A stretch of DNA of 64,000 nucleotides, taken from positions 32,001 through 96,000 of IMG/VR virus record IMGVR_UViG_3300045988_115450. One strand, written 5' to 3'. This DNA is from a virus. The translations under genes and the position numbers were made by a program. Positions 4,420-28,107 of the stretch are shown here, piece after piece. The first letter of the stretch is position 1, and each line of letters begins with the position of its first letter. The notes beneath the pieces were generated by a model. That model was not told the origin of the DNA. It was given only the letters and a program-made list of their open reading frames with translations, and did not search any database.

Positions 4420-5628
4420 TTATTCGCTTGCCTTGAAATTGTATACAGGCTTGATGATGTTCGCGACCTCTACGGTGTCCGCAATATTGGCAATGATTTC
4501 CTCCATCGTCTTGTAAGCCATCGGACTTTCATCAATGGTGGAACGGCTGACAGATGTGGTGAAGATACCCTTCATGGAATCCTCATACTCCTCGAGAGAA
4601 ACCAGCTCTTTCGCCTTACTGCGGCTCATTACTCGACCAGCACCATGAGGAGCTGAACAGTTCCAATCATCATTACCCTTGCCGATACCGATGATACAAC
4701 CATCACGCATATTGATAGGAATGAGGAGCTTTTCACCAGCTTTCGCAGAGATAGCCCCCTTGCGAACCATATTCGTTCCAAACTCAATGTAGTTGTGAAC
4801 GGTCTCGAACATCGGCAAATCCCAGTAGGCGATGTCACTTCCGAACAAACTGCTGACGATTCGATTTGCGATTTCATATCGGTTGGTTGCCGCAAAATGC
4901 TGACACGCTTTCATGTCGTGAAGATAATCTTCCCGGTGCTTTCCTGTGAGGTAGCACAGTTCCTTCGGAATCCCGAGAGGGTTCGGAGAGAACTTTCTAT
5001 GAAGCTCGGCAATCGCTTTCTGAATTTCCTTTTTGCGCCCCTGCGCCTTGTAATCAACAATCAGTTTCTCTTGTATAGCAATGAGTTCGTCCTTACCTTG
5101 CATAGTCTCAACGGCAAGGTTCTGATAGTATTCGGCAACCTGTTTTCCCAAATTGCGGCTACCAGTATGAATCACAAGGTATTTTACCCCTTCGGAATCA
5201 GTATCAATCTCGATGAAATGGTTTCCACCCCCGAGAGAACCGATGGAGCGAACCAGTCGTTCCGGGCCTTTGAGTGCCTTATAGCACCGAATATATTCAA
5301 TTACCTCGGTAGGGTAGATAGCCGTCTCGTTTACTTCACGACCACTTGGGACGTTCTCCCGGATAGCCTTGTCGAGATAATCGAAGTCAATGTCAATCTT
5401 ACCCAGTTCCACGGTCAGCATACCGCAACCAATGTCAACGCCAACGATGTTCGGAATGACCTTATCCCCCAAATCAGCCGTAAAGCCAACGACACAACCA
5501 GCCCCAGCATGAACATCGGGCATGATACGAACCTTGCAATCTGCGAAAGCTGGTTGTTTGACAAGGGTATAAATCTGATTCAGAGCCGTAGGCTCGATGT
5601 TATCAGTAAAAATCTTTAAGTCGCTCAT
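4420..5628 (-). CDS. rtcB: RtcB-family RNA 3'-phosphate ligase
   Basis: RtcB signatures: GGGNHFIE, HTGSRNLG, APHGAGR, MPDVHAGAG. Start set at MSDLKIF, which overlaps the upstream stop as TAATG. The track alternative is 5667. Confidence 0.9.
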   Translation of the reverse strand: MSDLKIFTDNIEPTALNQIYTLVKQPAFADCKVRIMPDVHAGAGCVVGFTADLGDKVIPNIVGVDIGCGMLTVELGKIDIDFDYLDKAIRENVPSGREVNETAIYPTEVIEYIRCYKALKGPERLVRSIGSLGGGNHFIEIDTDSEGVKYLVIHTGSRNLGKQVAEYYQNLAVETMQGKDELIAIQEKLIVDYKAQGRKKEIQKAIAELHRKFSPNPLGIPKELCYLTGKHREDYLHDMKACQHFAATNRYEIANRIVSSLFGSDIAYWDLPMFETVHNYIEFGTNMVRKGAISAKAGEKLLIPINMRDGCIIGIGKGNDDWNCSAPHGAGRVMSRSKAKELVSLEEYEDSMKGIFTTSVSRSTIDESPMAYKTMEEIIANIADTVEVANIIKPVYNFKASE

Positions 5629-6005
5629 TACACCACCATCACAATCCATGTTAAAATAATCTGACAAATATGAACCAGCTGATCCTGAACCAGGTTGATT
5701 TTCTTAAAGTTCGCCTTCAAGTCGTCAACACAGAAGTGAATAACGCAGTTCACTACCAGCATAACAAAAAACAGGACCGGTAGGTTGAGCTTCAGATAAA
5801 CCGCCACCGGCAGCATCGTCATGAACGTCCAGCTAGAAGCGTGCATAAACAGTGCTGCAAGATAGTCGTGCCTGTACTTCTCTCCAGGAGAGTTCTTTCT
5901 CCACCAATCCTTCTGCTTCATACTGGCAAGCACACCCTGCAGGTAATAATCATCCACGATGTGAGCAAACAGCATCACCAATAACACAAATAGCTTAGTC
6001 TGCAT
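5628..6005 (-). CDS. small multi-pass membrane protein (DUF3307-like)
   Basis: Four hydrophobic segments; HIVDDYYLQ motif near the N-terminus. Confidence 0.6.
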   Translation of the reverse strand: MQTKLFVLLVMLFAHIVDDYYLQGVLASMKQKDWWRKNSPGEKYRHDYLAALFMHASSWTFMTMLPVAVYLKLNLPVLFFVMLVVNCVIHFCVDDLKANFKKINLVQDQLVHICQIILTWIVMVV

Positions 6006-9410: not shown

Positions 9411-10577
9411 TTAGTTTTTGAGATCCTTCTTCATCGTGGCTTCAATATCAAAGCCAAACTTCTGACTATAGCGAGTGATAACTCCATCAATACTTCCTCT
9501 GTTAACCATTCGATAGTAGCTCATAAGACCGAGCACATATTGCAGTTGCTCAAGAGGCCAATAAGTTCCGCTCTTTCTGTCCTTCGCGTAATTGAAAAGC
9601 ATCGCCTCGAAGTTGCGCTTCTTCTTATACCCAATCGTGATCTGGTTGTCCTTGTTGATCATCACACCGAGTACCCAATTCTTATGATACGAGGGGCCGT
9701 AATGAGTTTTCTCATCTTTGATGAGATAACTGGCCCCGAAAAGTCTAAACAGATTTTCAATCTTTCTGATAATGAAGCTCTTATCAAACTCAATACCACA
9801 GCTGATGTTCATATCATCAGCATATCTGGTATACGCGAACCTTCTACCCTTTTCATCAGGGTTGTTTTCCGGGTTCTGCAGGCTACGCAGAAACTTACTG
9901 AACTCAAAATCAAACGGAATCATAATCAGATTGGTCAGCATCGGGCTGATCGGCGTTCCCATAGGTAGACCTCCATCCAGGAAGCAAAGCGACAGAGCTT
10001 TTCTAAGCTCTTCTCTCCCGCTTTTGCACTCCATAATGAGACAGAACGGGTAAATCATAGACAGCGCGTTCCATACAAACTCCGGAGTGGTATTAGGAAA
10101 GAAACCGCTGATGTCAGTCTTTAAATACCACTTGCTCTTATTCCACTGATGGACTTTTGCGGCGTCTACACTACTTCTGTTTTTGACATAAGCGTATGCA
10201 GCGGCATGGCTGCTCGCATAAAACTCAGATTCTAACAGCAGTTTTAGCTCTCGCAGACAATTCATCAGTTCGTCGTCCGGCGCGTTAATCTCTCTCATGC
10301 CGCCGCTCTTTTTCGGGATAAAAAACTTATGGTAATGTGTATGAAGATCGCTTTCAAGCAGTTCCTGATGCTTTTTGTTAAATGCTCTCAGTAGTTCAAT
10401 CTTTTTCCCCGTGTCAAACCCTGCCAGGATTCTCTCGGGCAGTCTCTCATATGCAACTGTTCTAGTATATAGAGATCTCGATTCCCTCACATGTTTATCT
10501 TGAAGCAGCGCAGACATAATATCCTCTAAAGAAATCTGCTTATACGGCTCTGTAATTCTTGCTGTTACATAAATCAT
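9411..10577 (-). CDS. reverse transcriptase, retron-like (388 aa, RT domain only)
   Basis: FFIPKKSGGMREINAP (RT1); SSVDAAKVH; LKTDISGFFPN (RT3); LPMGTPISPMLTNL (RT4); YTRYADDMNIS (RT5, YADD); NWVLGVMIN at the position of the retron VTG block. No accessory domains. Confidence 0.85.
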   Translation of the reverse strand: MIYVTARITEPYKQISLEDIMSALLQDKHVRESRSLYTRTVAYERLPERILAGFDTGKKIELLRAFNKKHQELLESDLHTHYHKFFIPKKSGGMREINAPDDELMNCLRELKLLLESEFYASSHAAAYAYVKNRSSVDAAKVHQWNKSKWYLKTDISGFFPNTTPEFVWNALSMIYPFCLIMECKSGREELRKALSLCFLDGGLPMGTPISPMLTNLIMIPFDFEFSKFLRSLQNPENNPDEKGRRFAYTRYADDMNISCGIEFDKSFIIRKIENLFRLFGASYLIKDEKTHYGPSYHKNWVLGVMINKDNQITIGYKKKRNFEAMLFNYAKDRKSGTYWPLEQLQYVLGLMSYYRMVNRGSIDGVITRYSQKFGFDIEATMKKDLKN

Positions 10578-10593: not shown

Positions 10594-10937
10594 TTATCTG
10601 AAACTATATATGGATTTGGATGTCAGTACGAGATGCTCATCGCGGAGCTTGTCGTCGTCTGAGACGGTGAAATCCCTGACTTGGCGTTTATTGTTTGCCG
10701 GATACCCCTGCTGGTGGCGGATGTTGACCCTGTCGAACGAATATCCTTCTGGTTTTTCCTGTTGTTCGGGCGCTGCTTCTCATCAGAGAAGATGCCACCG
10801 GGGTGTTAAGCCTTCTTGGAGGGCACCAAGCATTGGTCTGCTATCGCACGCAGCGGGGTTCCTCTTTCGGACGATGTGCCACTCTTCCGTTCCGGTAAGA
10901 GTTTCTATTTTTTTAAATAGAAAGTGCTTTCAGATAT
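10594..10937 (-). ncRNA. IR-bracketed structured RNA gene, copy A (candidate retron msr-msd)
   Basis: No minus-strand ORF. The 9-bp inverted repeat TATCTGAAA (10595-10603) / TTTCAGATA (10928-10936) brackets it. In RNA sense the 5' arm is followed by G and then the hairpin TTTCTATTT-AAAAAA-ATAGAAA. The core 10604-10901 is homologous to 16549-16848. The element ends 17 nt before the RT ATG. Confidence 0.55.
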
Positions 10938-11037
10938 TTAGATTGAATTGGTTGTTAGCAGGCGTGCCATTCCCCTGCATCTCTTTAGCCATTAAGGCGC
11001 GTGGCGACACGAAATTTCCACCTCAAACAACCAATAT

Positions 11038-11706
11038 TTAATATGCTTCCATAGTAAAATCAAAGGCGTCGATCAAAACTATCTTCTTGATCGAACGCCC
11101 ATTCACAAAATTCATGAAGTTTGCTACTGCACAAGAGCAAATCATCCGCACAGAAGGAGCGATACTAAGCTCCAGGTTACATGCAGATCGAGGAGTTTCA
11201 GCCAGAGCTTCCTCTTGAGTAAACTGCATGGAGTTAATCAGATTTTCAACCATCGCACTAGAACTCCAGTCAGCCGCAAAGTGTTGCGCGTCCGTCAGCC
11301 GAAGTCTGGTATCAAACACAGCTTTGATATACGGGTTTCTAGCATTTTCTTCGCAAATTTTTCTGCGGAGATCAATGTTGTCCACCATAAGGAAGACATA
11401 GCCGGACAGACGCTGGTTGGTATACCCCTCCTGAACTACTTCAATACCATTTGCATCAGGATTGATACTCAACATCATATCTTTCACGGCTTCAGCTTTA
11501 TTTCTACCGATGTCGCTATCATTGAACATCTGATTCGCGATATTGTGCGACTCAACCTTGTCAAAATCGTACAGAGTGACCTTCTCAAGCCCAGCTCTTG
11601 CCAACAATTCGGCTACAGTGGAACCGGACGCACCACAACCGATGATATGTACTCTTTCTTTAACCTTCGTGGGATTAAAGAACTCAATACTCTTCGATAA
11701 ATTCAT
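11038..11706 (-). CDS. ThiF/MoeB-type E1-like adenylyltransferase (222 aa, minimal)
   Basis: Rossmann loop IIGCGASGSTVAELLARAGL; then LYDFDKVESHNIANQ (DxD...N..Q, with the usual Arg replaced) and LMVDNIDLRR. Confidence 0.8.
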   Translation of the reverse strand: MNLSKSIEFFNPTKVKERVHIIGCGASGSTVAELLARAGLEKVTLYDFDKVESHNIANQMFNDSDIGRNKAEAVKDMMLSINPDANGIEVVQEGYTNQRLSGYVFLMVDNIDLRRKICEENARNPYIKAVFDTRLRLTDAQHFAADWSSSAMVENLINSMQFTQEEALAETPRSACNLELSIAPSVRMICSCAVANFMNFVNGRSIKKIVLIDAFDFTMEAY

Positions 11707-11718
11707 CTTTATACCTCC

Positions 11719-11997
11719 TTATAGCATTAAACAATTCAAAAATACATCACTATCGACTTTACTTTCAATCGGCTCAAACATCCAAGAAGCCCAAGCAACA
11801 AATCTTAATTTGCCTCTTTCTTCAATGCAAATACGTTCAACTTGAATGCCGTTAATCAAGGATGTCAATGAGCGCACTGTTATGATCTTACCGCAATAGC
11901 GCGTTTTATCCCCTTCAAATATCCCGTGATCATTTTTAGAAAGAATCGCCGTTCCACTACCTGTATCTACGGAAAACAGATCAGGGTCAGACATCAT
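11719..11997 (-). CDS. NCLLL-tail family protein 5 (92 aa; tail ...FLNCLML)
   Basis: Shares only the C-terminal tail with the four upstream genes. A 16-codon out-of-frame remnant of the family N-terminus lies just upstream. Confidence 0.6.
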   Translation of the reverse strand: MMSDPDLFSVDTGSGTAILSKNDHGIFEGDKTRYCGKIITVRSLTSLINGIQVERICIEERGKLRFVAWASWMFEPIESKVDSDVFLNCLML

Positions 11998-12061
11998 GTC
12001 TTCCTAACTCCTCACCCTGACCTTCTGCCCAACATACATATCTTCAAGTTTCATACGTCAC

Positions 12062-12394
12062 CTACAACAACAAACAGTTCATAAAAACCTGCTCATCAAT
12101 AGATTGCTTTAACCGCAACACACTTTTATAGAAAGACATCTCTTTTTTGCTAACCCTTACCCTGTACCAACCGCCAAGTTCATACTCAACGATCTCGCCG
12201 CCGTCTCTTATAAACTCTCTGAGGCAAGGATCGCCCTCCGCGTACATCACATCGTCGGCGTATATAAATCTTTCGTTTGTGATGATGTCTACGCTCTGCG
12301 ACACAGCCCCATTCGGAAATACCGCCCGTAAGTTATCATTAAATTCATCCCACGTTTTTGGAATAAACTCAACCCGCTGCCCAGGTCTAAACAT
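12062..12394 (-). CDS. NCLLL-tail family protein 4 (110 aa; tail ...VFMNCLLL)
   Basis: Paralog of 12404..12745 and 12753..13082 (MFxxGQ[KR]V...WDEF...GWY.V...); conserved C-terminus. Confidence 0.7.
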   Translation of the reverse strand: MFRPGQRVEFIPKTWDEFNDNLRAVFPNGAVSQSVDIITNERFIYADDVMYAEGDPCLREFIRDGGEIVEYELGGWYRVRVSKKEMSFYKSVLRLKQSIDEQVFMNCLLL

Positions 12395-12403
12395 TATATC
12401 ACC

Positions 12404-12745
12404 TCACAATAATAAGCAATTTATGAACAATTTTTCATCAATTGACCTCATGTCTTCTTTCAGACACAACACGCTTTCGTGAAATTTCAGTTTTACTCCA
12501 TTTATATTCACCATATACCAACCAGTAGCATAGTACTTGATAATCTCACCTCCATTTATTAGAAGCTCGTTAAACCAAGAATCGCCTTCCCCATAAAGCA
12601 CCCCTGCAACCAATATCATTTCTCTATGAGTAGTTGAGAATTCATCTAATATCATATCTCTCGCAAACAACTCCATTAAAGCATCCCGAAATTCATCCCA
12701 TGACTTTGGGGCAAGCGTAACTTTCTGTCCAAGTTCAAACATCAT
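12404..12745 (-). CDS. NCLLL-tail family protein 3 (113 aa; tail ...LFINCLLL)
   Basis: Paralog set; conserved C-terminus. Confidence 0.7.
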   Translation of the reverse strand: MMFELGQKVTLAPKSWDEFRDALMELFARDMILDEFSTTHREMILVAGVLYGEGDSWFNELLINGGEIIKYYATGWYMVNINGVKLKFHESVLCLKEDMRSIDEKLFINCLLL

Positions 12746-12752
12746 ATTACCT

Positions 12753-13082
12753 CTATAGCAGCAAACAATTCATAAGTACCTCTTCGTCAACATATGCTTC
12801 TTCCATCGACCGTAGCATCGTCTCATAGAACCACGCTCTTTCTCCGCCAAAGTCTACAATGTACCAACCACACTCGAAGTCTAATTCAATCACGCCACTC
12901 ATCCTGCGTAACTTATAAAAATCGGGAGCGCTATATCCTGCTGCACTAGCTGCAAGATACCCAGTGGTATCACAGCTCGTAAACCTTTTTGCGCTGCGAG
13001 GAAGATGCTTTAGGTAAGCGCTGCAAAACTCATCCCAGCTCCTCAATGCTATCCTGACTCGTTGTCCGATCTCGAACATCAT
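12753..13082 (-). CDS. NCLLL-tail family protein 2 (109 aa; tail ...VLMNCLLL)
   Basis: Track ORF is 12753..13133. Trimmed to MMFEIGQRV... behind AGAGGAG. Confidence 0.7.
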   Translation of the reverse strand: MMFEIGQRVRIALRSWDEFCSAYLKHLPRSAKRFTSCDTTGYLAASAAGYSAPDFYKLRRMSGVIELDFECGWYIVDFGGERAWFYETMLRSMEEAYVDEEVLMNCLLL

Positions 13083-13092
13083 ATCAACTCCT

Positions 13093-13437
13093 CTATAACA
13101 GCAGGCAATCCATAAGTGTCTTTTCGTCAACACTTTTTTCTTTTAATTGACACGGCGCTGTTTCGCCCGGCCCACCCACCAAACACTCATCTCTTACTTC
13201 GCCAAAGTCAACGCGCCAAATCCAATAGTCATCCGGTTCCAGATAAATTGTCGCTCCGTATTTATCTGGAGCATTAAAATTGTCACCTTCAATCATTTCG
13301 CATCCATCATCGACGCATTCTTGAAACACTGAATGAAACCTACGTTTCACGTGTTCCACCGCACTCTCCAAATTCCAATAAACACCGGATAAATCAATAC
13401 CCTGGTCTGTTTCTGTTATCACACAATATACCTTCAT
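13093..13437 (-). CDS. NCLLL-tail family protein 1 (114 aa; tail ...TLMDCLLL)
   Basis: Track ORF is 13093..13542. Trimmed to MKVYCVITE... behind AAAGGAG. The N-domain is unrelated but the C-terminal tail is the same. Confidence 0.65.
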   Translation of the reverse strand: MKVYCVITETDQGIDLSGVYWNLESAVEHVKRRFHSVFQECVDDGCEMIEGDNFNAPDKYGATIYLEPDDYWIWRVDFGEVRDECLVGGPGETAPCQLKEKSVDEKTLMDCLLL

Positions 13438-13611
13438 ACCGGTCTTCTCCTTTCTTATGTACCTCTGAACAGCTAACCAGCTGTTTAAGTTCAAAAGTTT
13501 TCTGCTCTGGGAGTAGGAAAACTTTTGAAGCGACACAGCCATTTGTTACTCCCTCGTTCCGACAAGAGTGATATGTAATTTAACATATCTGTACAGGCAC
13601 ATATGTTTTTT

Positions 13612-16113: not shown

Positions 16114-16503
16114 TTAGCCAGCTACTACGATCTTGGAACTGACCCGTGCCATCATAACGTCGATCTCTTCCAGCGCTTCGCGCACCTGGGCTTCAATCTT
16201 TTCTACCTTCTCGATAACAGAAGCATATCTCTCGGCAACAACCTCACGTACGGAACGGTCAGCTTCGGTAATAAGACTCACAGTTACGACCGCACGACCA
16301 GAGCCATCACAAGACTCAGCCTCATAGATAATACCGGTCGGTGCTACTACGCCTCTCTCGCCAGCGAGAGTGTAAAACAGTGCGTTGCCATCTTCGTCCA
16401 GCAGTTGCACAGACTTAGGCCGGTACAGAGCTGCGCGATTGATTTCTTCAAGAGTGAAAGCACTCTTGAGTGTTACTGCGTTACCACACACAATAATTTC
16501 CAT
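16114..16503 (-). CDS. hypothetical protein (129 aa) ending ...KIVVAG
   Basis: MEIIVCGNAVTLKSAFTLEEI resembles the ThiS/MoaD N-terminus; C-terminal Gly; first gene after ncRNA copy B. Confidence 0.55.
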   Translation of the reverse strand: MEIIVCGNAVTLKSAFTLEEINRAALYRPKSVQLLDEDGNALFYTLAGERGVVAPTGIIYEAESCDGSGRAVVTVSLITEADRSVREVVAERYASVIEKVEKIEAQVREALEEIDVMMARVSSKIVVAG

Positions 16504-16536: not shown

Positions 16537-16883
16537 TATAAAGTGATTCTATATATGGAATGATAGACCTAACCCGTGCGTTAGTACGCTGACGGGCTTG
16601 GTTATCTGAGGTACTGTGTGATCGACGTCGCTCCAACTCCGCATCGCTTTGGCGTTTGATGCCTTACGCTGTAACGGTGGTAGGCAAGTTGTGCGGCTTT
16701 CTTTATATGCTTCGCTTAGTAATCTTAGCCTTCTTGTCGCATCCATGACGCCGAGAGGTTTCTGGTCGAGAGCCATCGAGGTTGGTGCAACCTTTGCGAT
16801 GCTTCCCACACCTTCGGACGATATGTTACTCTCCCATTCTGGCAAGAGCCTCTGTGAATTTCAGAGTTTGCAATCACTTTATA
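16537..16883 (-). ncRNA. IR-bracketed structured RNA gene, copy B (paralog of 10594..10937)
   Basis: A 12-bp perfect inverted repeat, TATAAAGTGATT (16537-16548) / AATCACTTTATA (16872-16883), brackets it. In RNA sense the 5' arm is followed by G and then the hairpin CTCTG-aaattca-CAGAG. The core 16549-16848 shares CTATATATGGA, TTGGCGTTT, AGCCTTCTTG and TTCGGACGATxTGxxACTCTxCC with copy A, at similar offsets. Confidence 0.55.
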
Positions 16884-17978: not shown

Positions 17979-18053
17979 TGGCAGCGCCGGACTGAGATCG
18001 AACAGTCTTCCACGGAGTCAAAGTCCGTTGCATTACCGTTATGCTACGGCGCT
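17979..18053 (-). tRNA. trnQ-UUG: tRNA-Gln (UUG), 75 nt, CCA encoded
   Basis: AGCGCCG-TA-GCAT-AACGGTA-ATGC-A-ACGGA-CTTTGAC-TCCGT-GGAA-GACTG-TTCGATC-CAGTC-CGGCGCT-G-CCA. Confidence 0.85.
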
Positions 18054-18164
18054 ATATAAATCAAGCAGAGCAGAGCAGAGTTTAAAGCCATTCCAGGCTA
18101 TGTAAAGAAAGGAGGTGGTTTATCAACAATAACAGGTAGGAGAATCATTTTCTGTTGCTTGATA

Positions 18165-18239
18165 TGGGGTAGGCGACGAGTGCCGATCTCGCGTTTCCGG
18201 TTTGGAAGACCGGTGTTCTAGCCGTTGAACTACGCCTAC
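18165..18239 (-). tRNA. trnG-UCC: tRNA-Gly (UCC), 75 nt, CCA encoded
   Basis: GTAGGCG/CGCCTAC acceptor stem; CCGGT-CTTCCAA-ACCGG anticodon arm; unusual T-loop ATCGGCA. Confidence 0.8.
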
Positions 18240-18269
18240 ATTTTTGCGGTTCCGCAAACCGCATTTTTT

Positions 18270-18899
18270 TTAATTCATATATAAATCATAATAACTTTGT
18301 TTTCTTCTTGGTTTCAAATCTGGATTTTTTAAACGCCTTTTGATGAACTCAACTGTATTATCCAGCCCATAGTTCCTGACGTATGTATTGATCCTGTTTG
18401 CTCCCAAACCTAAAGTTTTAGCCCAGTCCTTCCCAGTATGTATCGTTCCGTCAACATCAATAAGCGAAGTTGTAGACTTGTATTTCGAATTATCTGCCAA
18501 TGTTACCCATCTGCAATTATCAGGAGAATAATCCCCGTCCCAATCAATTCTATCAATAGTCAAACCATCATCGTACCCGTTAGTTAATGACCAACTCTCA
18601 AATAATTCTGGATTGCGCATCCAATCATCACAAACCTTAACACCCTTAGCGCCATACCATCTGTAGCTCTTATTACTCTTATCATAGCACCTAGCTTTCA
18701 TATCGCTAAAAATTCTCCGGAGCTTGTCGTCACTCCATGAAGCATCATAATTTATATAACCCCCGCTTCTTCCGATATGTCTACAAGCTTTCGCCTGCTC
18801 AATATGCCTTTTCTGTTTGTTCGTTTCAAACCCACACTCAGCACATCTCACATGGTATAATCTATGCCCGTCCCTATGCCTGAAATCACACTCATACAA
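18270..18899 (-). CDS. HNH_3-like homing endonuclease with C-terminal HTH (209 aa)
   Basis: N-terminal CAEC...C..H zinc finger. TIDRIDWDGDYSPDNCRWVTLADNSK resembles DHIDG...NLRWVT..EN, but the first His is Arg. C-terminal WAKTLGLGANRINTYVRNYG. Confidence 0.6.
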   Translation of the reverse strand: MYECDFRHRDGHRLYHVRCAECGFETNKQKRHIEQAKACRHIGRSGGYINYDASWSDDKLRRIFSDMKARCYDKSNKSYRWYGAKGVKVCDDWMRNPELFESWSLTNGYDDGLTIDRIDWDGDYSPDNCRWVTLADNSKYKSTTSLIDVDGTIHTGKDWAKTLGLGANRINTYVRNYGLDNTVEFIKRRLKNPDLKPRRKQSYYDLYMN

Positions 18900-19047
18900 G
18901 ACATCGAAAATACCTATCCTAGTACCAACAATATTCTCTTTTTCCAGAATATCACCATCTTTCTGCGTGTTGCTAAATAATAATCCGATGAGAGTGCTGC
19001 CCTCTCGCCTGCGTTGTTCACTGTACTACTGTTATACTAATCGGATG

Positions 19048-19128
19048 TACGGGCGACAAGATTTGAACTTGCAAGCCTTACGGCACCGGGGCCTAAACCC
19101 GGCGTGTATACCGTTCCACCACGCCCGC
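19048..19128 (-). tRNA. trnL-UAG: tRNA-Leu (UAG), type II, ~81 nt, no encoded CCA
   Basis: GCGGGCG acceptor stem; CCGGG-TTTAGGC-CCCGG anticodon arm; long variable arm; T-arm GCAAG-TTCAAAT-CTTGT. Confidence 0.8.
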
Positions 19129-19210
19129 ATGGCACCACTAAGTCATGGTCGGCTGCGCATTTATCCTTTTTTGAATCGTGGTAGATGATTTTGCTTCGTA
19201 CAACCACGCA

Positions 19211-19285
19211 TGGACTGAGTGGAGAATTTTGAAATCTCGACCTCTGGTTCCCAAAACCAGCGTTCTGCCTCTGAACTACACCCAG
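19211..19285 (-). tRNA. trnP-UGG: tRNA-Pro (UGG), 75 nt, CCA encoded
   Basis: CTGGT-TTTGGGA-ACCAG anticodon arm; T-arm GAGAT-TTCAAAA-TTCTC. Confidence 0.8.
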
Positions 19286-19288
19286 ATA

Positions 19289-19363
19289 TGGAGGCCGATG
19301 CGAGTTCGAACTCAGCGTCTGTGGGTTACAAAGCCACTGTTTTACCACTTAAACTAATCGGCC
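19289..19363 (-). tRNA. trnT-UGU: tRNA-Thr (UGU), 75 nt, CCA encoded
   Basis: GGCCGAT/ATCGGCC acceptor stem; anticodon loop TTTGTAA with a C31-C39 mismatch; T-loop TTCGAAC. Confidence 0.75.
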
Positions 19364-19513
19364 ACGCACCCCGTTTTGCGGGGTGGCTATGTAAGGGAAT
19401 CAAAAAGGGGAACTCCTGTCTCTTCCAGGATGCCAACACACTACTACGGACTGCCAGAGGCAAACCGCCACTTTTCAGGTGTCATAGTCCGCAAACTATG
19501 GGCTTTTCTTTAG

Positions 19514-19595
19514 TGCGGGATAAGAGACTTGAACTCTTACGTCTATCGACATCGAGACTTAAACACGAGGTGTCTACCGATTCCACCAATCCCGC
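19514..19595 (-). tRNA. trnL-UAA: tRNA-Leu (UAA), type II, ~82 nt, no encoded CCA
   Basis: GCGGGAT/ATCCCGC acceptor stem; loop TTTAAGT; long variable arm TGTCGATAGACGT; T-arm AAGAG-TTCAAGT-CTCTT. Confidence 0.8.
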
Positions 19596-19602
19596 ATATT
19601 GA

Positions 19603-19940
19603 ACTTGCTACAACCCAGCCTGGTGGTTGACCCGTGGGCGTTGATAACTGACCCAAACCATTAACCCAGGATTTTGTAAAACTTTAACCGTTAACCTTTG
19701 ATTCTTGAACTTTAATCTTCTGAAGATCTTTGAGCCTTGAATTTTGAAATTTTAACTTTGAAGTTTGAGCTTTACAGCAACATTTCTTCTATAAGAAATT
19801 AGATTAACAGTCCAATCTTTTTGTAAGCGCAAAATTTCAAGTTTTGCTTTGTAGTTGGCACATATTTGTTCATTTTTACATCGAACCAAGTGCCGTCAGC
19901 ACGATGGGTTACCGTTTTAGGTTTTCGGGTTGCAGCAAGT
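19603..19940 (-). other. IR-bracketed ~340-bp ORF-free element with short-period repeats
   Basis: ACTTGCTACAACCC (19603-19616) versus GGGTTGCAGCAAGT (19927-19940), matching at 13/14. Interior has AACTTTAA / CTTTGA / GGTTAAYGGTT repeats and several local hairpins. Confidence 0.4.
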
Positions 19941-19948
19941 TGCTTATT

Positions 19949-20602
19949 TTAGTATTCTACGGTGATTGTAGTGGTCGCATTGGACACAGATAGCTGAGAA
20001 TCTACATCCGCAGTAAACGTGTCAATCCAATCGCTCAAAACCTTGATTTCATTACCAATGTCAAGCGGATCAACGAGTTCATACGTATTGTTGGCAATAT
20101 ACTCTTCTCTCAACCGCTTAACGACCTCAGAATCCTTGGTTGTCTTGGCCTCTTTAGGCTGGCACTGGAGGAAATTCATGATATACTGTTCAGCTTTCGC
20201 TTCAATCCACTCGCCTTCATGTTTGGAAACCTCAGCACGGGCTCTTTCGTACTGCCGGACCATTACATCAAGCAAATCTTTCTTAGCCATGATTCCATGG
20301 CTTTTCATTTCGATGGCTTCGGCTACGGTGTAAGGTTCGCCGCCAATTACCACCGGGGTTTTGGCATTGGAGAGCACAACTGCTCTCTTAATAGCCGTCC
20401 GACGAGCAATCAAGTCCGTAACAGACTGATAATCAGACTTCATATCCTTCTTGAGGGTTTCGACCAGCACACCGCCGATCTTTTTGTCGCTCACTTTCTT
20501 ACTGGCAACGAAGGTTTTACCAGAAGTAGCATTGAAAATTCTAGCGTCCAAAATTTTCAGCTCTGCAAGAGCTTTATGGACGGTCATAGTTTCTTTGTTC
20601 AT
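19949..20602 (-). CDS. hypothetical protein (217 aa) embedded in the tRNA island
   Basis: ORF track; plus-strand ORFs 20019..20333 and 20219..20635 are shadows. Confidence 0.65.
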   Translation of the reverse strand: MNKETMTVHKALAELKILDARIFNATSGKTFVASKKVSDKKIGGVLVETLKKDMKSDYQSVTDLIARRTAIKRAVVLSNAKTPVVIGGEPYTVAEAIEMKSHGIMAKKDLLDVMVRQYERARAEVSKHEGEWIEAKAEQYIMNFLQCQPKEAKTTKDSEVVKRLREEYIANNTYELVDPLDIGNEIKVLSDWIDTFTADVDSQLSVSNATTTITVEY

Positions 20603-20653
20603 ATTAGTTCCTCACTTTCTTATTTATGGAATTAGATTTTTATCGTGGTATCG

Positions 20654-20744
20654 TGGTCTCCCTGGGTGAATTCGAATCACCATATACCTTATGAGGGCCT
20701 TCCAATTATAAGTTGGAAGCTATAACCAATTTAGCTACAGGGAG
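20654..20744 (-). tRNA. atypical 91-nt tRNA, anticodon UAU, long variable region, CCA encoded
   Basis: CTCCCTG-TA-GCTA-AATTGGTTA-TAGC-T-TCCAA-CTTATAA-TTGGA-(19-nt variable AGGCCCTCATAAGGTATAT)-GGTGA-TTCGAAT-TCACC-CAGGGAG-A-CCA. Confidence 0.65.
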
Positions 20745-21024
20745 ATATTTGTTCAGCAACCACAACCGCCCTATCAATCAGTCGGCCTAACCAAAAGATA
20801 GGGCTGGATTGTGTTGCCCAACCGTGCCTGAGAGCTTTCTTGCCTAGCCTGTACTTAACCAGGTGTCTGCAATCAATGTTTAGGTTGCTGGTTTTGACCC
20901 TCGCTCTAGAACCAGTTAACTAGAGCGATTGAGAGCTACTAGACGGAATTGCACCGCCTTGAAGTCATAAGTGAGGCGCGAGAGGAGTTACGCCCACCTC
21001 TTCACCTGCTTGGAGTAGCATATG

Positions 21025-21100
21025 TGGCACCAGCACTAAGATTCGAACTTAGAACTACGGTTTTGGAGACCGCCGTTTTTCCACTTAAAACTATGCTGGT
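21025..21100 (-). tRNA. trnW-CCA: tRNA-Trp (CCA), 76 nt, CCA encoded
   Basis: ACCAGCA-TA-GTTT-AAGTGGAA-AAAC-G-GCGGT-CTCCAAA-ACCGT-AGTT-CTAAG-TTCGAAT-CTTAG-TGCTGGT-G-CCA. Confidence 0.9.
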
Positions 21101-27938: not shown

Positions 27939-28107
27939 ACAGCGTCCTACCTTTCCGCTACCCTAGCAAGCTGCTGCTAGGGTAGCTTTTTTTTGCAGGC
28001 ATAGACAGAATCCACCTATGTTATCCCTGCGACCTCGCAGGCCAGGGCGATCCCAGCCTACGAACGCTCCCGGCCTAACGCCTGTTTATAGTCGCCGGGA
28101 CGACTCT

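What the first reader, a model, noticed from the sequence alone, without database searches (positions are those of the whole stretch)
16537..16883. Second, diverged copy of the RT-associated RNA gene, with compensatory change in its flanking arms and no adjacent RT
The core 16549-16848 (300 nt) aligns with 10604-10901 (298 nt), in the same orientation and at similar offsets. Shared plus-sense blocks are:
- CTATATATGGA at one end
- TTGGCGTTT
- AGCCTTCTTG
- TTCGGACGAT(A/G)TG(TT/CC)ACTCT(C/T)CC...(C/T)GG(C/T)AAGAG at the other end

The bracketing inverted repeat is present in both copies but with unrelated sequence. Copy B has 12 bp (TATAAAGTGATT / AATCACTTTATA). Copy A has 9 bp (TATCTGAAA / TTTCAGATA). 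In both, the 5' arm in RNA sense is followed by G and then a hairpin of different sequence. A terminal helix also covaries (CTCTT...AAGAG versus CTCTT...GAGAG).

Conservation of pairing rather than sequence argues for a functional RNA structure. Copy B precedes the 129-aa gene, not an RT, so one RT may serve two RNAs. Alternatively, the element may be a shared 5' leader.
Basis: seen in the sequence. Interest (0 to 1): 0.8.

Follow-up and report, generated by a model that had tools for sequence, protein, structure and literature searches.

The report
Extra retron RNA genes, one RT
A large gut phage carries one retron-type reverse transcriptase but three separate copies of the structured RNA that such enzymes prime and copy, and the flagged element is a real second copy whose template part is unrelated to the first, an arrangement I could not find described for retrons.

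Summary
16537-16883 (minus strand) is a real second copy of the RNA that precedes the RT gene (10595-10936). Only the first ~75 nt and the last ~25 nt are homologous.

Both copies have retron ncRNA anatomy: arm a1, a G, a variable hairpin SL1, a conserved hairpin SL2 plus tail, a variable template region, then (U/C)AG and arm a2. In 36 copies from 16 related sources, SL2 is 99% paired and 6 of its 9 pairs show compensatory changes. The arms covary through at least eight sequence types. The RT matches only retron RTs, and the window holds one RT.

I found a third, compact copy at 13456-13603. Relatives carry 2-3 copies at varying sites. All copies in one genome share that genome's SL2 variant. 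The 98-aa ORF is not conserved.

Best reading (about 0.6): dispersed retron-type RNA genes served in trans by one phage RT, each giving a different cDNA. No cDNA or transcript data exist, and the biological role is unknown. I rate it a new variant of a known kind.

The parts
16537..16883 (-). Copy B: complete retron-type ncRNA, 347 nt, from a1 to a2
   Evidence: Sequence. Folds with a1/a2 closed, -104.7 kcal/mol, z = -4.3. Covariance model hit of 66.4 bits. Anchored a1/a2 helix of 13 bp.
16872..16883 (-). Copy B arm a1 (UAUAAAGUGAUU); the candidate branch G is the next base, 16871
   Evidence: The geometry a1-G is kept in all copies.
16849..16867 (-). Copy B SL1, a hairpin whose sequence varies between copies (ACUCUG...CAGAG)
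   Evidence: A hairpin is present at this position in 23 of 26 distinct copies, with many different stems.
16828..16849 (-). Copy B SL2, the conserved bulged hairpin with a GAA loop (GCUCUU-G-CCA-GAA-UGG-GAGAGU); likely the RT recognition element
   Evidence: Covariance model. Across 36 copies it is 99% paired and 6 of 9 pairs are compensatory, with 0 of 500 shuffles reaching this. The variant is genome-specific.
16809..16827 (-). Copy B conserved tail AACAUAUCGUCCGAAGGUG
16560..16808 (-). Copy B variable region, the presumed template (msd). It is unrelated to that of copy A and replaced in near-identical phages.
16537..16559 (-). Copy B 3' end: UCCAUAUAUAG (16559-16549, with the G opposite the branch G) followed by arm a2 (16548-16537)
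   Evidence: a2 is preceded by AG in 24 of 28 copies.
10595..10936 (-). Copy A: the RT-linked ncRNA, 342 nt, with a2 ending 17 nt before the RT start codon
   Evidence: (73.6 bits).
13456..13603 (-). Copy C: compact third ncRNA, 148 nt. It has a1 UAUGUGCCU, G at 13594, SL1, SL2 (13548-13569), a long stable hairpin, then CAG and a2 AGGUACAUA.
   Evidence: Covariance model hit on SL2, E = 1e-5. Fold z = -3.5. Kept in 7 relatives, with a1/a2 changed to CCGUACUU/AAGUAUGG in L025 and L026. 87% paired against 42-59% in slid controls.
9411..10577 (-). The only reverse transcriptase in the window: 388 aa, retron type, YADD catalytic motif
   Evidence: Pfam RVT_1. PADLOC retron RT models, best 5e-41. 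NCBIfam retron_St85_RT 1e-47. All 12 PDB hits are retron RTs. No second RT in the window.
16114..16503 (-). 129-aa gene downstream of copy B; function unknown
   Evidence: No Pfam, PHROG, PADLOC or NCBIfam match. Family of 654 representative proteins. Confident structure model with no PDB match. Lies 3.2-6.4 kb upstream of the RT in 68 of 73 loci.

Best explanation
Copy B is a second, independent retron-type RNA gene (msr-msd) used in trans by the single phage-encoded retron-type RT, whose gene lies 6 kb downstream.

**Proposed mechanism**
1. The RT recognises the conserved SL2 hairpin and tail that A and B share. Copy C shares the SL2 hairpin and only the first 7 nt of the tail.
2. The a1/a2 helix places the 2'-OH of the G after a1 next to the template end (...UAUAUAG).
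3. The RT then copies the variable region into a branched single-stranded cDNA.

Because the template regions of A, B and C are unrelated, the phage would make several different cDNA/RNA/RT particles from one enzyme.

**Shown here:** the RNA anatomy, its covariation, the sharing of recognition elements among copies, the single RT, and the retron affinity of that RT.

**Inferred:** binding of the RT to B, priming from the G, cDNA synthesis, and any downstream role. Because the template parts turn over fast between near-identical phages, I guess at a role in conflict with the host or with other phages, or in regulation.
For: **The RT is retron type.** PADLOC retron RT models score up to 5e-41. 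NCBIfam retron_St85_RT gives 1e-47. All 12 PDB hits are retron RTs. There is one RT in the window.

**The anatomy is retron-like.** Each copy runs a1-G ... (U/C)AG-a2.
- Anchored cognate helices are 6-14 bp, against a median of 5-6 bp for non-cognate pairings, with at least eight arm sequence types.
- Across 105 non-redundant RT loci, 53% have a helix of 8 bp or more in exactly this geometry, against 4% of shuffles.

**The hairpins are under selection.**
- SL2 is 99% paired, 6 of 9 pairs are compensatory, and there are 43 double-change cells against 10.1 +/- 2.4 in shuffles.
- SL1 is kept as a hairpin with many different stems.

**One recogniser per genome.** A and B share SL2, the tail and the 3' initiation motif, while their middles are unrelated. 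Every copy in a genome carries that genome's SL2 variant: three copies in L031, three in L036/L027, two in L030, and the W group.

**The copies behave as independent genes.**
- Relatives hold 2-3 copies at different intergenic sites.
- The L028 copy ends in a terminator.
- The L036 lineage has the 129-aa gene without the RNA.
- No ORF is conserved inside the copies.
Against: - There is no transcript, cDNA or binding data of any kind.
- The template regions of A and B do not form the single long stable stem-loop typical of retron msd. The RNA fold is multibranched, and the cDNA of B folds no better than shuffles (z = -1.35).
- At 340 nt the RNA is longer than typical retron ncRNAs.
- The RT lacks the full NAXXH and VTG motifs. 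It has DAAKVH and VLG, keeping only the H and the G. It also falls below the curated cut-off of the nearest NCBIfam retron model (162.9 bits against 235).
- No effector gene is recognisable next to the RT.
- Every copy sits just upstream of a gene in the same orientation, which also fits a leader role.
Confidence: 0.6

Rival explanations
1. Copy B is a cis-acting leader. The RT, or another phage protein, binds SL2 and the a1/a2 helix to control translation or stability of the downstream mRNA, and no cDNA is made from B. A variant of this reading has cDNA synthesis plus RNase H cutting the leader off, as a switch.
For: - Every copy lies directly upstream of a gene on the same strand.
- In copies A and C the a2 arm ends 2-6 nt from the Shine-Dalgarno sequence.
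- A precedent exists for coupling a retron template to translation of a gene on the same RNA: the Type VI retron hyRNA (bioRxiv 10.1101/2025.10.22.683967).
Against: - For B-type copies the distance from a2 to the start codon varies from about 34 to 130 nt, and in L028 a terminator intervenes.
- The 129-aa gene is conserved without the RNA in the L036 lineage and in distant clades.
- The downstream genes differ between copies.
- Conservation of the branch-G/AG geometry and of the 3' initiation motif is not needed for a plain operator.
Confidence: 0.2
2. The elements are structured RNAs unrelated to reverse transcription, for example processing sites or a ribonucleoprotein with another phage protein. 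The one next to the RT gene would then be there by chance of gene order.
For: - No Rfam family matches, even at E <= 5.
- The middle region is not msd-like.
- The RT and the flanking genes sit in a conserved syntenic block, so linkage alone is weak evidence.
Against: - An RNA with this geometry ends within 70 nt of the RT start codon in 53% of 105 diverse RT loci, against 4% of shuffles.
- The a1-G / G-a2 arrangement is the one known from retrons (Mestre et al. 2020, PMC7736814; the Ec86 sequence is from my own knowledge).
- SL2 variants track the genome, and hence the RT.
Confidence: 0.1
3. Copy B is a decaying duplicate of copy A with no function of its own.
For: The middle is unrelated to A, and no RT is adjacent.
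Against: - The arms and both hairpins are maintained by compensatory change.
- B-type copies are kept upstream of the 129-aa gene in phages whose RTs are only 52% identical.
- The flanks and functional ends are about 99% identical between W and L011 while the middle is replaced. That is the opposite of uniform decay.
Confidence: 0.05
4. The segment encodes the 98-aa protein (16549..16845, minus strand).
For: An open frame of 98 codons exists.
Against: - It has a TTG start inside SL2.
- It matches no protein family.
- The longest open frames in the other copies fall in different frames and on different strands. The copy in L011, which has identical flanks, has no equivalent frame. 25 of 300 shuffles give a frame as long.
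Confidence: 0.02

Closest known systems
Canonical bacterial retrons (msr-msd ncRNA plus RT), e.g. Retron-Sen2/St85 (type II-A) and Ec83/Ec78 (type I-A)
   Same: - The RT is of retron type.
- The ncRNA is bracketed by inverted repeats, with a G right after a1 and a G right before a2.
- There are one or two msr hairpins, and the ncRNA lies directly upstream of the RT gene (copy A).
- The template part varies fast.
   Different: - There is one RT with two or three dispersed ncRNA genes, and B lies 6 kb from the RT.
- The RNAs are about 340 nt, with a multibranched rather than single-hairpin template region (A and B).
- The RT has an N-terminal extension of about 70 aa and degenerate NAXXH/VTG motifs.
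- No recognisable effector is present.
- The system sits in a conserved gene block of a family of ~95-180-kb phage contigs rather than in a bacterial defence island.
Type VI retron hybrid RNA (Retron-Vpa2; bioRxiv 10.1101/2025.10.22.683967)
   Same: A retron template and a protein-coding sequence lie on one transcript, and the RT product is proposed to change expression of that gene. This gives a model for why the copies sit in front of genes.
   Different: In hyRNA the coding sequence lies inside the a1/a2 bracket, and an HTH protein is part of the complex. Here the genes lie outside the bracket, no HTH partner is evident, and the downstream genes differ.
Engineered retron arrays, with several msd templates for one RT (from my own knowledge, not checked here)
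   Same: One retron RT serves several templates supplied separately.
   Different: Those are synthetic constructs. This would be a natural case, with templates dispersed in a phage genome.
Diversity-generating retroelements (DGRs)
   Same: They are phage-borne, have one RT, and have repeated elements of which part is hypervariable.
   Different: There is no template/variable repeat pair differing at adenines; the middles are simply unrelated. The RT matches retron RTs, and the repeats are non-coding.

Membership tests
Retron (RT plus msr-msd ncRNA) | RT belongs to the retron clade of prokaryotic RTs | tested here: met
   All of the 25 PADLOC hits shown (of 55 families matched) are retron RT models, best RT_II-A at 5e-41. 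The NCBIfam best hit is retron_St85_RT at 1e-47, but at 162.9 bits it is below the subtype cut-off of 235. All 12 PDB sequence hits are retron RTs. So the RT is retron type but belongs to no defined subtype.
Retron (RT plus msr-msd ncRNA) | Region X NAXXH motif and region Y VTG triplet in the RT (Mestre et al. 2020, PMC7736814) | tested here: inconclusive
   The window RT has DAAKVH and VLG. H143 and G304, the residues Mestre et al. call the most conserved, are invariant in 20 family members. The N and T are not kept. The motif positions were aligned by eye.
Retron (RT plus msr-msd ncRNA) | ncRNA ends pair through inverted repeats a1/a2, with a conserved G immediately 3' of a1 | tested here: met
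   Copy B has 12-13 bp, A has 9 bp and C has 9 bp. Cognate helices are longer than non-cognate ones, and the arms covary. Across the family, 53% of loci against 4% of shuffles show the geometry.
Retron (RT plus msr-msd ncRNA) | msr region with one to three hairpins | tested here: met
   SL1 and SL2 directly follow the G.
Retron (RT plus msr-msd ncRNA) | msd region forms one long stable stem-loop | tested here: not met
   For B (and A) the fold is multibranched, and the cDNA of B has z = -1.35. The feature is met only by the compact copy C, which has a stem of about 13 bp.
Retron (RT plus msr-msd ncRNA) | ncRNA gene contiguous with its RT gene | tested here: not met
   B lies 5.96 kb upstream of the RT, with about ten genes between them. 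The feature is met by copy A.
Retron (RT plus msr-msd ncRNA) | Production of branched msDNA (2'-5' link to the G) | not testable with these tools
   This needs expression and nucleic-acid analysis.
Retron (RT plus msr-msd ncRNA) | Associated effector protein (tripartite defence system) | tested here: inconclusive
   Of the genes scanned against PADLOC (four besides the RT, none immediately downstream of it), only the ThiF/E1-like protein at 11038..11706 matches a PADLOC model. In relatives it is not always adjacent to the RT. The genes just downstream of the RT differ between relatives.
Type VI retron hyRNA | Effector coding sequence enclosed within the a1/a2-bracketed RNA, with an HTH partner | tested here: not met
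   The bracket holds no conserved ORF, and the downstream gene lies outside a2.
Diversity-generating retroelement | Template and variable repeats that are near-identical except at adenines, with the variable repeat inside a target gene | tested here: not met
   The middles of A and B are unrelated, and both are intergenic.
Any Rfam family | Match to a curated covariance model | tested here: not met
   No hit on A, B or C at gathering score or at E <= 5.

The most novel reading that the evidence does not exclude
A widespread family of ~95-180-kb gut phages keeps a retron-type RT as a conserved part of its early-gene block. It pairs that RT with a small repertoire of dispersed, rapidly exchanged template RNAs. 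One enzyme would then make several different branched cDNAs that act for the phage, for example as decoys or inhibitors of host immunity, or as switches for the genes behind each copy. This would be the phage-side, multi-template counterpart of bacterial retrons.
Probability: 0.35. Interest if true: 0.85.

Novelty: new variant of a known kind. Interest (0 to 1): 0.75.

Why it matters
Retrons are studied as bacterial anti-phage systems and as genome-editing tools. In the cases I know of or found described, one RT is paired with one adjacent ncRNA.

A natural system in which one RT serves several dispersed ncRNAs would show three things:
- that trans-templating is used in nature;
- which minimal RNA elements suffice for recognition (SL2, the tail, the arms and the G);
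- a set of long (~250-nt), freely variable natural templates, which is of practical interest for retron editors.

The system sits in a conserved block of a large, uncultured family of gut and rumen phages rather than in a defence island. That raises the question of what a phage does with msDNA.

Tried and rejected
- **Close phage relatives.** A megablast of the region against GenBank phages found nothing. An RT protein search there found one unannotated faecal phage record at 42% identity.
- **Rfam.** No family matched at permissive thresholds.
- **Coding potential.** No conserved ORF, so the neo-like gene idea borrowed from DRT2 is dropped.
- **Template targets.** The template regions have no significant match elsewhere in the window.
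- **The 129-aa protein.** No family matched. The single-sequence model was poor. The alignment-based model was excellent (pLDDT 96.9), but it has no PDB match and matches only two uncharacterised gut siphovirus proteins.
- **Within- versus between-genome identity of the 5' module.** The result was uninformative, 0.73 against 0.67, because many genomes are close relatives. I replaced it with the table of genome-specific SL2 variants.
- **Family-wide arm search.** The first, unconstrained version had too high a background. I replaced it with the geometry-constrained test.
- **Tail pairing.** A long-range pairing of the conserved tail with the 3' domain, suggested by RNAalifold on four close sequences, could not be confirmed by eye in other copies.
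- **A scan for phages with the 129-aa gene but no RT.** It failed because the alignment was too diverse.
- **Literature.** Searches for phage-encoded or multi-ncRNA retrons found nothing relevant.

Full report
**Setting.** The window is part of a large tailed phage. It encodes a terminase large subunit, a portal protein, an RtcB-type ligase and an exonuclease, plus eight tRNAs and a Pistol ribozyme. Genes in the first 30 kb run on the minus strand. The closest relatives are uncultured viral contigs of 104-109 kb from gut metagenomes, and more distant ones reach ~180 kb. No annotated phage in GenBank is close.

**The observation.**
- Read on the minus strand, 16883->16537 is a 347-nt element. 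It starts with UAUAAAGUGAUU followed by G, and ends with UAG followed by AAUCACUUUAUA.
- 10936->10595 is a 342-nt element. It starts with UAUCUGAAA followed by G, and ends with UAG followed by UUUCAGAUA, 17 nt before the start codon of a 388-aa reverse transcriptase.
- The two share the first ~75 nt: local score 37 against 13.3 +/- 2.2 in shuffles, 0 of 500.
- They share the last ~25 nt: 22 against 10.8 +/- 2.5, 0 of 500.
- The ~245-nt middle is not significantly alike: 20 against 17.6 +/- 2.4, with 90 of 500 shuffles as good.

Both RNAs fold with their arms paired, a variable hairpin (SL1), then a conserved bulged hairpin with a GAA loop (SL2).

**The enzyme.** The RT carries a YADD motif.
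- The 25 PADLOC hits shown (of 55) are all retron RT models, best 5e-41.
- Its best NCBIfam hit is the retron St85 family at 1e-47, though at 162.9 bits it is below that model's cut-off of 235.
- All 12 of its PDB sequence hits are retron RTs: Ec83, Ec78, St85-family, Ec67 and Ec86.
- Of the two retron signature motifs described by Mestre et al. 2020 (PMC7736814), it keeps only the most conserved residues: DAAKVH for NAXXH and VLG for VTG.
- It has a conserved N-terminal extension of about 70 aa.
- It is the only RT in the 64 kb.
- The family is large, with 2087 proteins at E <= 1e-20.

**Homologues of the RNA.** I fetched loci around RT relatives and built a covariance model of the 5' module.
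- In the window it finds A at 73.6 bits, B at 66.4 bits and a third site at 13541-13569.
- Across 16 sources it finds 36 copies.
- On these, SL2 is 99% paired, and 6 of 9 pairs show changes on both sides. There are 43 double-change cells against 10.1 +/- 2.4 in shuffles (0 of 500). Slid controls pair at only 35-52%.
- SL1 is a hairpin in 23 of 26 distinct copies, with many unrelated stems.
- With the G fixed by the model, the arm before it pairs with a segment 200-345 nt downstream over 6-14 bp. Non-cognate combinations give a median of 5-6 bp.
- The arms take at least eight unrelated sequences. In 24 of 28 copies a2 is preceded by AG.
- This a1-G / G-a2 geometry is the one I know from retron Ec86 (own knowledge), and it fits the description in PMC7736814.
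- Family-wide, 53% of 105 non-redundant RT loci have a helix of 8 bp or more in exactly this geometry ending within 70 nt of the RT start codon. Only 4% of shuffles do. The median element is 301 nt. Distant clades show the same layout by eye.

**More than two copies.** The third model hit is part of a compact 148-nt element, 13603->13456. Its parts, in order, are:
- a1 UAUGUGCCU, then G, SL1 and SL2;
- a stable ~13-bp hairpin whose tip varies;
- CAG, then a2 AGGUACAUA;
- then a Shine-Dalgarno sequence and an ATG at 13437.

It is kept in seven relatives, and L025 and L026 have different arms that still pair. Support from pair counts is modest because the sequences are close: 87% paired against 42-59% slid, with 13 of 500 shuffles reaching it.

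The listed 149-aa ORF therefore starts too early. Its ATG is ATA in L032, and the hairpin tip differs by lengths that are not multiples of three.

Relatives also have several copies:
- L031 has three full ones, and L036/L027 have three.
- Others have two plus compact ones.
- Their positions differ. In the L036 lineage the 129-aa gene follows its neighbour after about 80 nt with no RNA in front of it, and the extra copies lie downstream of the RT.
- In L028 the copy upstream of the 129-aa gene ends in a rho-independent terminator about 110 nt before that gene.

**One recogniser per genome.** All copies of a genome share that genome's version of SL2:
- CUCCUACUGKUACGGGGGAG in the three copies of L031;
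- UGCCGAYA-GGG in the three copies of L036/L027;
- ACACCYRUCAGRAUGAGGGUGU in the two of L030;
- YCRGAAYGR in the window and its close relatives.

This concerted pattern, together with the shared tail and the shared 3' motif (UCCAUAUAUAG in A and B), is what one expects if a single protein, most simply the RT, reads all copies.

**The template part.**
- It is not conserved between A and B.
- It has no match elsewhere in the window.
- It carries no conserved ORF.
- It turns over abruptly. Between the window and L011, the flanks, the 5' module and the last ~95 nt are about 99% identical, while ~260 nt in between are replaced except for a 24-nt island.
- L001, whose 129-aa protein is 100% identical, has a wholly different B copy.
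- The region does not fold into the single long hairpin of classic msd, and the cDNA of B folds weakly (z = -1.35).

**The neighbour gene.** The 129-aa protein belongs to a family with 654 representative members and no annotation. A confident model (pLDDT 96.9) has no PDB match. It lies 3.2-6.4 kb upstream of the RT in 68 of 73 loci. It is thus part of a conserved gene block, with or without the RNA in front.

**Interpretation.** The best reading is that B, and C, are additional retron-type RNA genes served in trans by the one RT. I hold the structural claim, a homologous and selected retron-like RNA, at about 0.9. I hold the mechanistic claim, that it is primed and copied by the distant RT, at about 0.6.

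The main rival is a protein-binding leader with no cDNA. It is suggested by the position of every copy in front of a gene and by the Type VI retron hyRNA precedent. It is weakened by the variable spacing, the terminator in L028 and the movable positions.

I found no description of natural retrons with several dispersed ncRNAs, or of retrons as conserved parts of such phages, in the searchable literature. That library is incomplete.

Noticed in passing
window 13456-13603 (-): A third, compact (148-nt) retron-type ncRNA with a canonical long stable hairpin whose tip is hypervariable among near-identical phages. It sits just upstream of the gene ending at 13093.
   Followed up: yes
window 13093-13542 (-): The 149-aa ORF is probably over-called. 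Its first ~35 codons overlap copy C, its ATG is not conserved (ATA in L032), and the likely true start is the ATG at 13437, which follows a good Shine-Dalgarno sequence and gives 114 aa.
   Followed up: partly
window 10951-11031 (-): A skipping-rope RNA (Rfam RF02924, 50.3 bits) lies between the ThiF-like gene and copy A. A near-identical stretch is seen in L026 (not checked in L001), and it is absent at the same spot in L003 and L025, so it looks like an insertion. Its function is unknown (Weinberg et al. 2017, PMC5737381).
   Followed up: partly
window 28028-28105 (-): A Pistol self-cleaving ribozyme (RF02679, 63.9 bits).
   Followed up: no
window 4420-5667 (-) and 17982-21100 (-): An RtcB-type tRNA ligase (phrog_1075, 1e-125) and a cluster of eight tRNA genes. 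Together these suggest repair or replacement of tRNAs cut by host defences.
   Followed up: no
window 11038-11706 (-): A ThiF/E1-like adenylyltransferase (Pfam ThiF 5e-24), with PADLOC matches to the E1 part of E1-E2 proteins. It is always within a few kb upstream of the RT in relatives, but not always adjacent.
   Followed up: partly
window 11719-13133 (-): Four tandem paralogous small genes (92, 110, 113 and 126 aa), with repeat spacing of about 343 nt. Copy number differs among relatives.
   Followed up: no
L025:9682-9990, L026:1029-1360, L001:3727-4075, L032:9658-9990, L037:3671-4006: Many template regions contain A tracts of 8-12 nt in RNA sense, often followed by GCC or UGCCC. L026 also has a run of more than 20 T. 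This is unexplained.
   Followed up: no
L107:4600-4800, L031:3950-4070, L004:5200-5300: A conserved motif, AACCUCC(A/U)CGUGGU, lies upstream of the 129-aa gene in distant lineages, with or without a retron-type RNA there. It may be that gene's own leader element.
   Followed up: no
L057:11404-11482, L076:11597-11679, L079:1226-1309, L047:5518-5593: In the distant termite-gut clade, weak model hits (22-28 bits) lie just downstream of the RT gene, in addition to the RNA upstream. These may be extra copies there too.
   Followed up: no
window 16114-16503 (-): The 129-aa protein gives a very confident predicted fold (beta sheet plus a 40-residue C-terminal helix) with no match among solved structures. 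It belongs to a large, unannotated phage family.
   Followed up: partly
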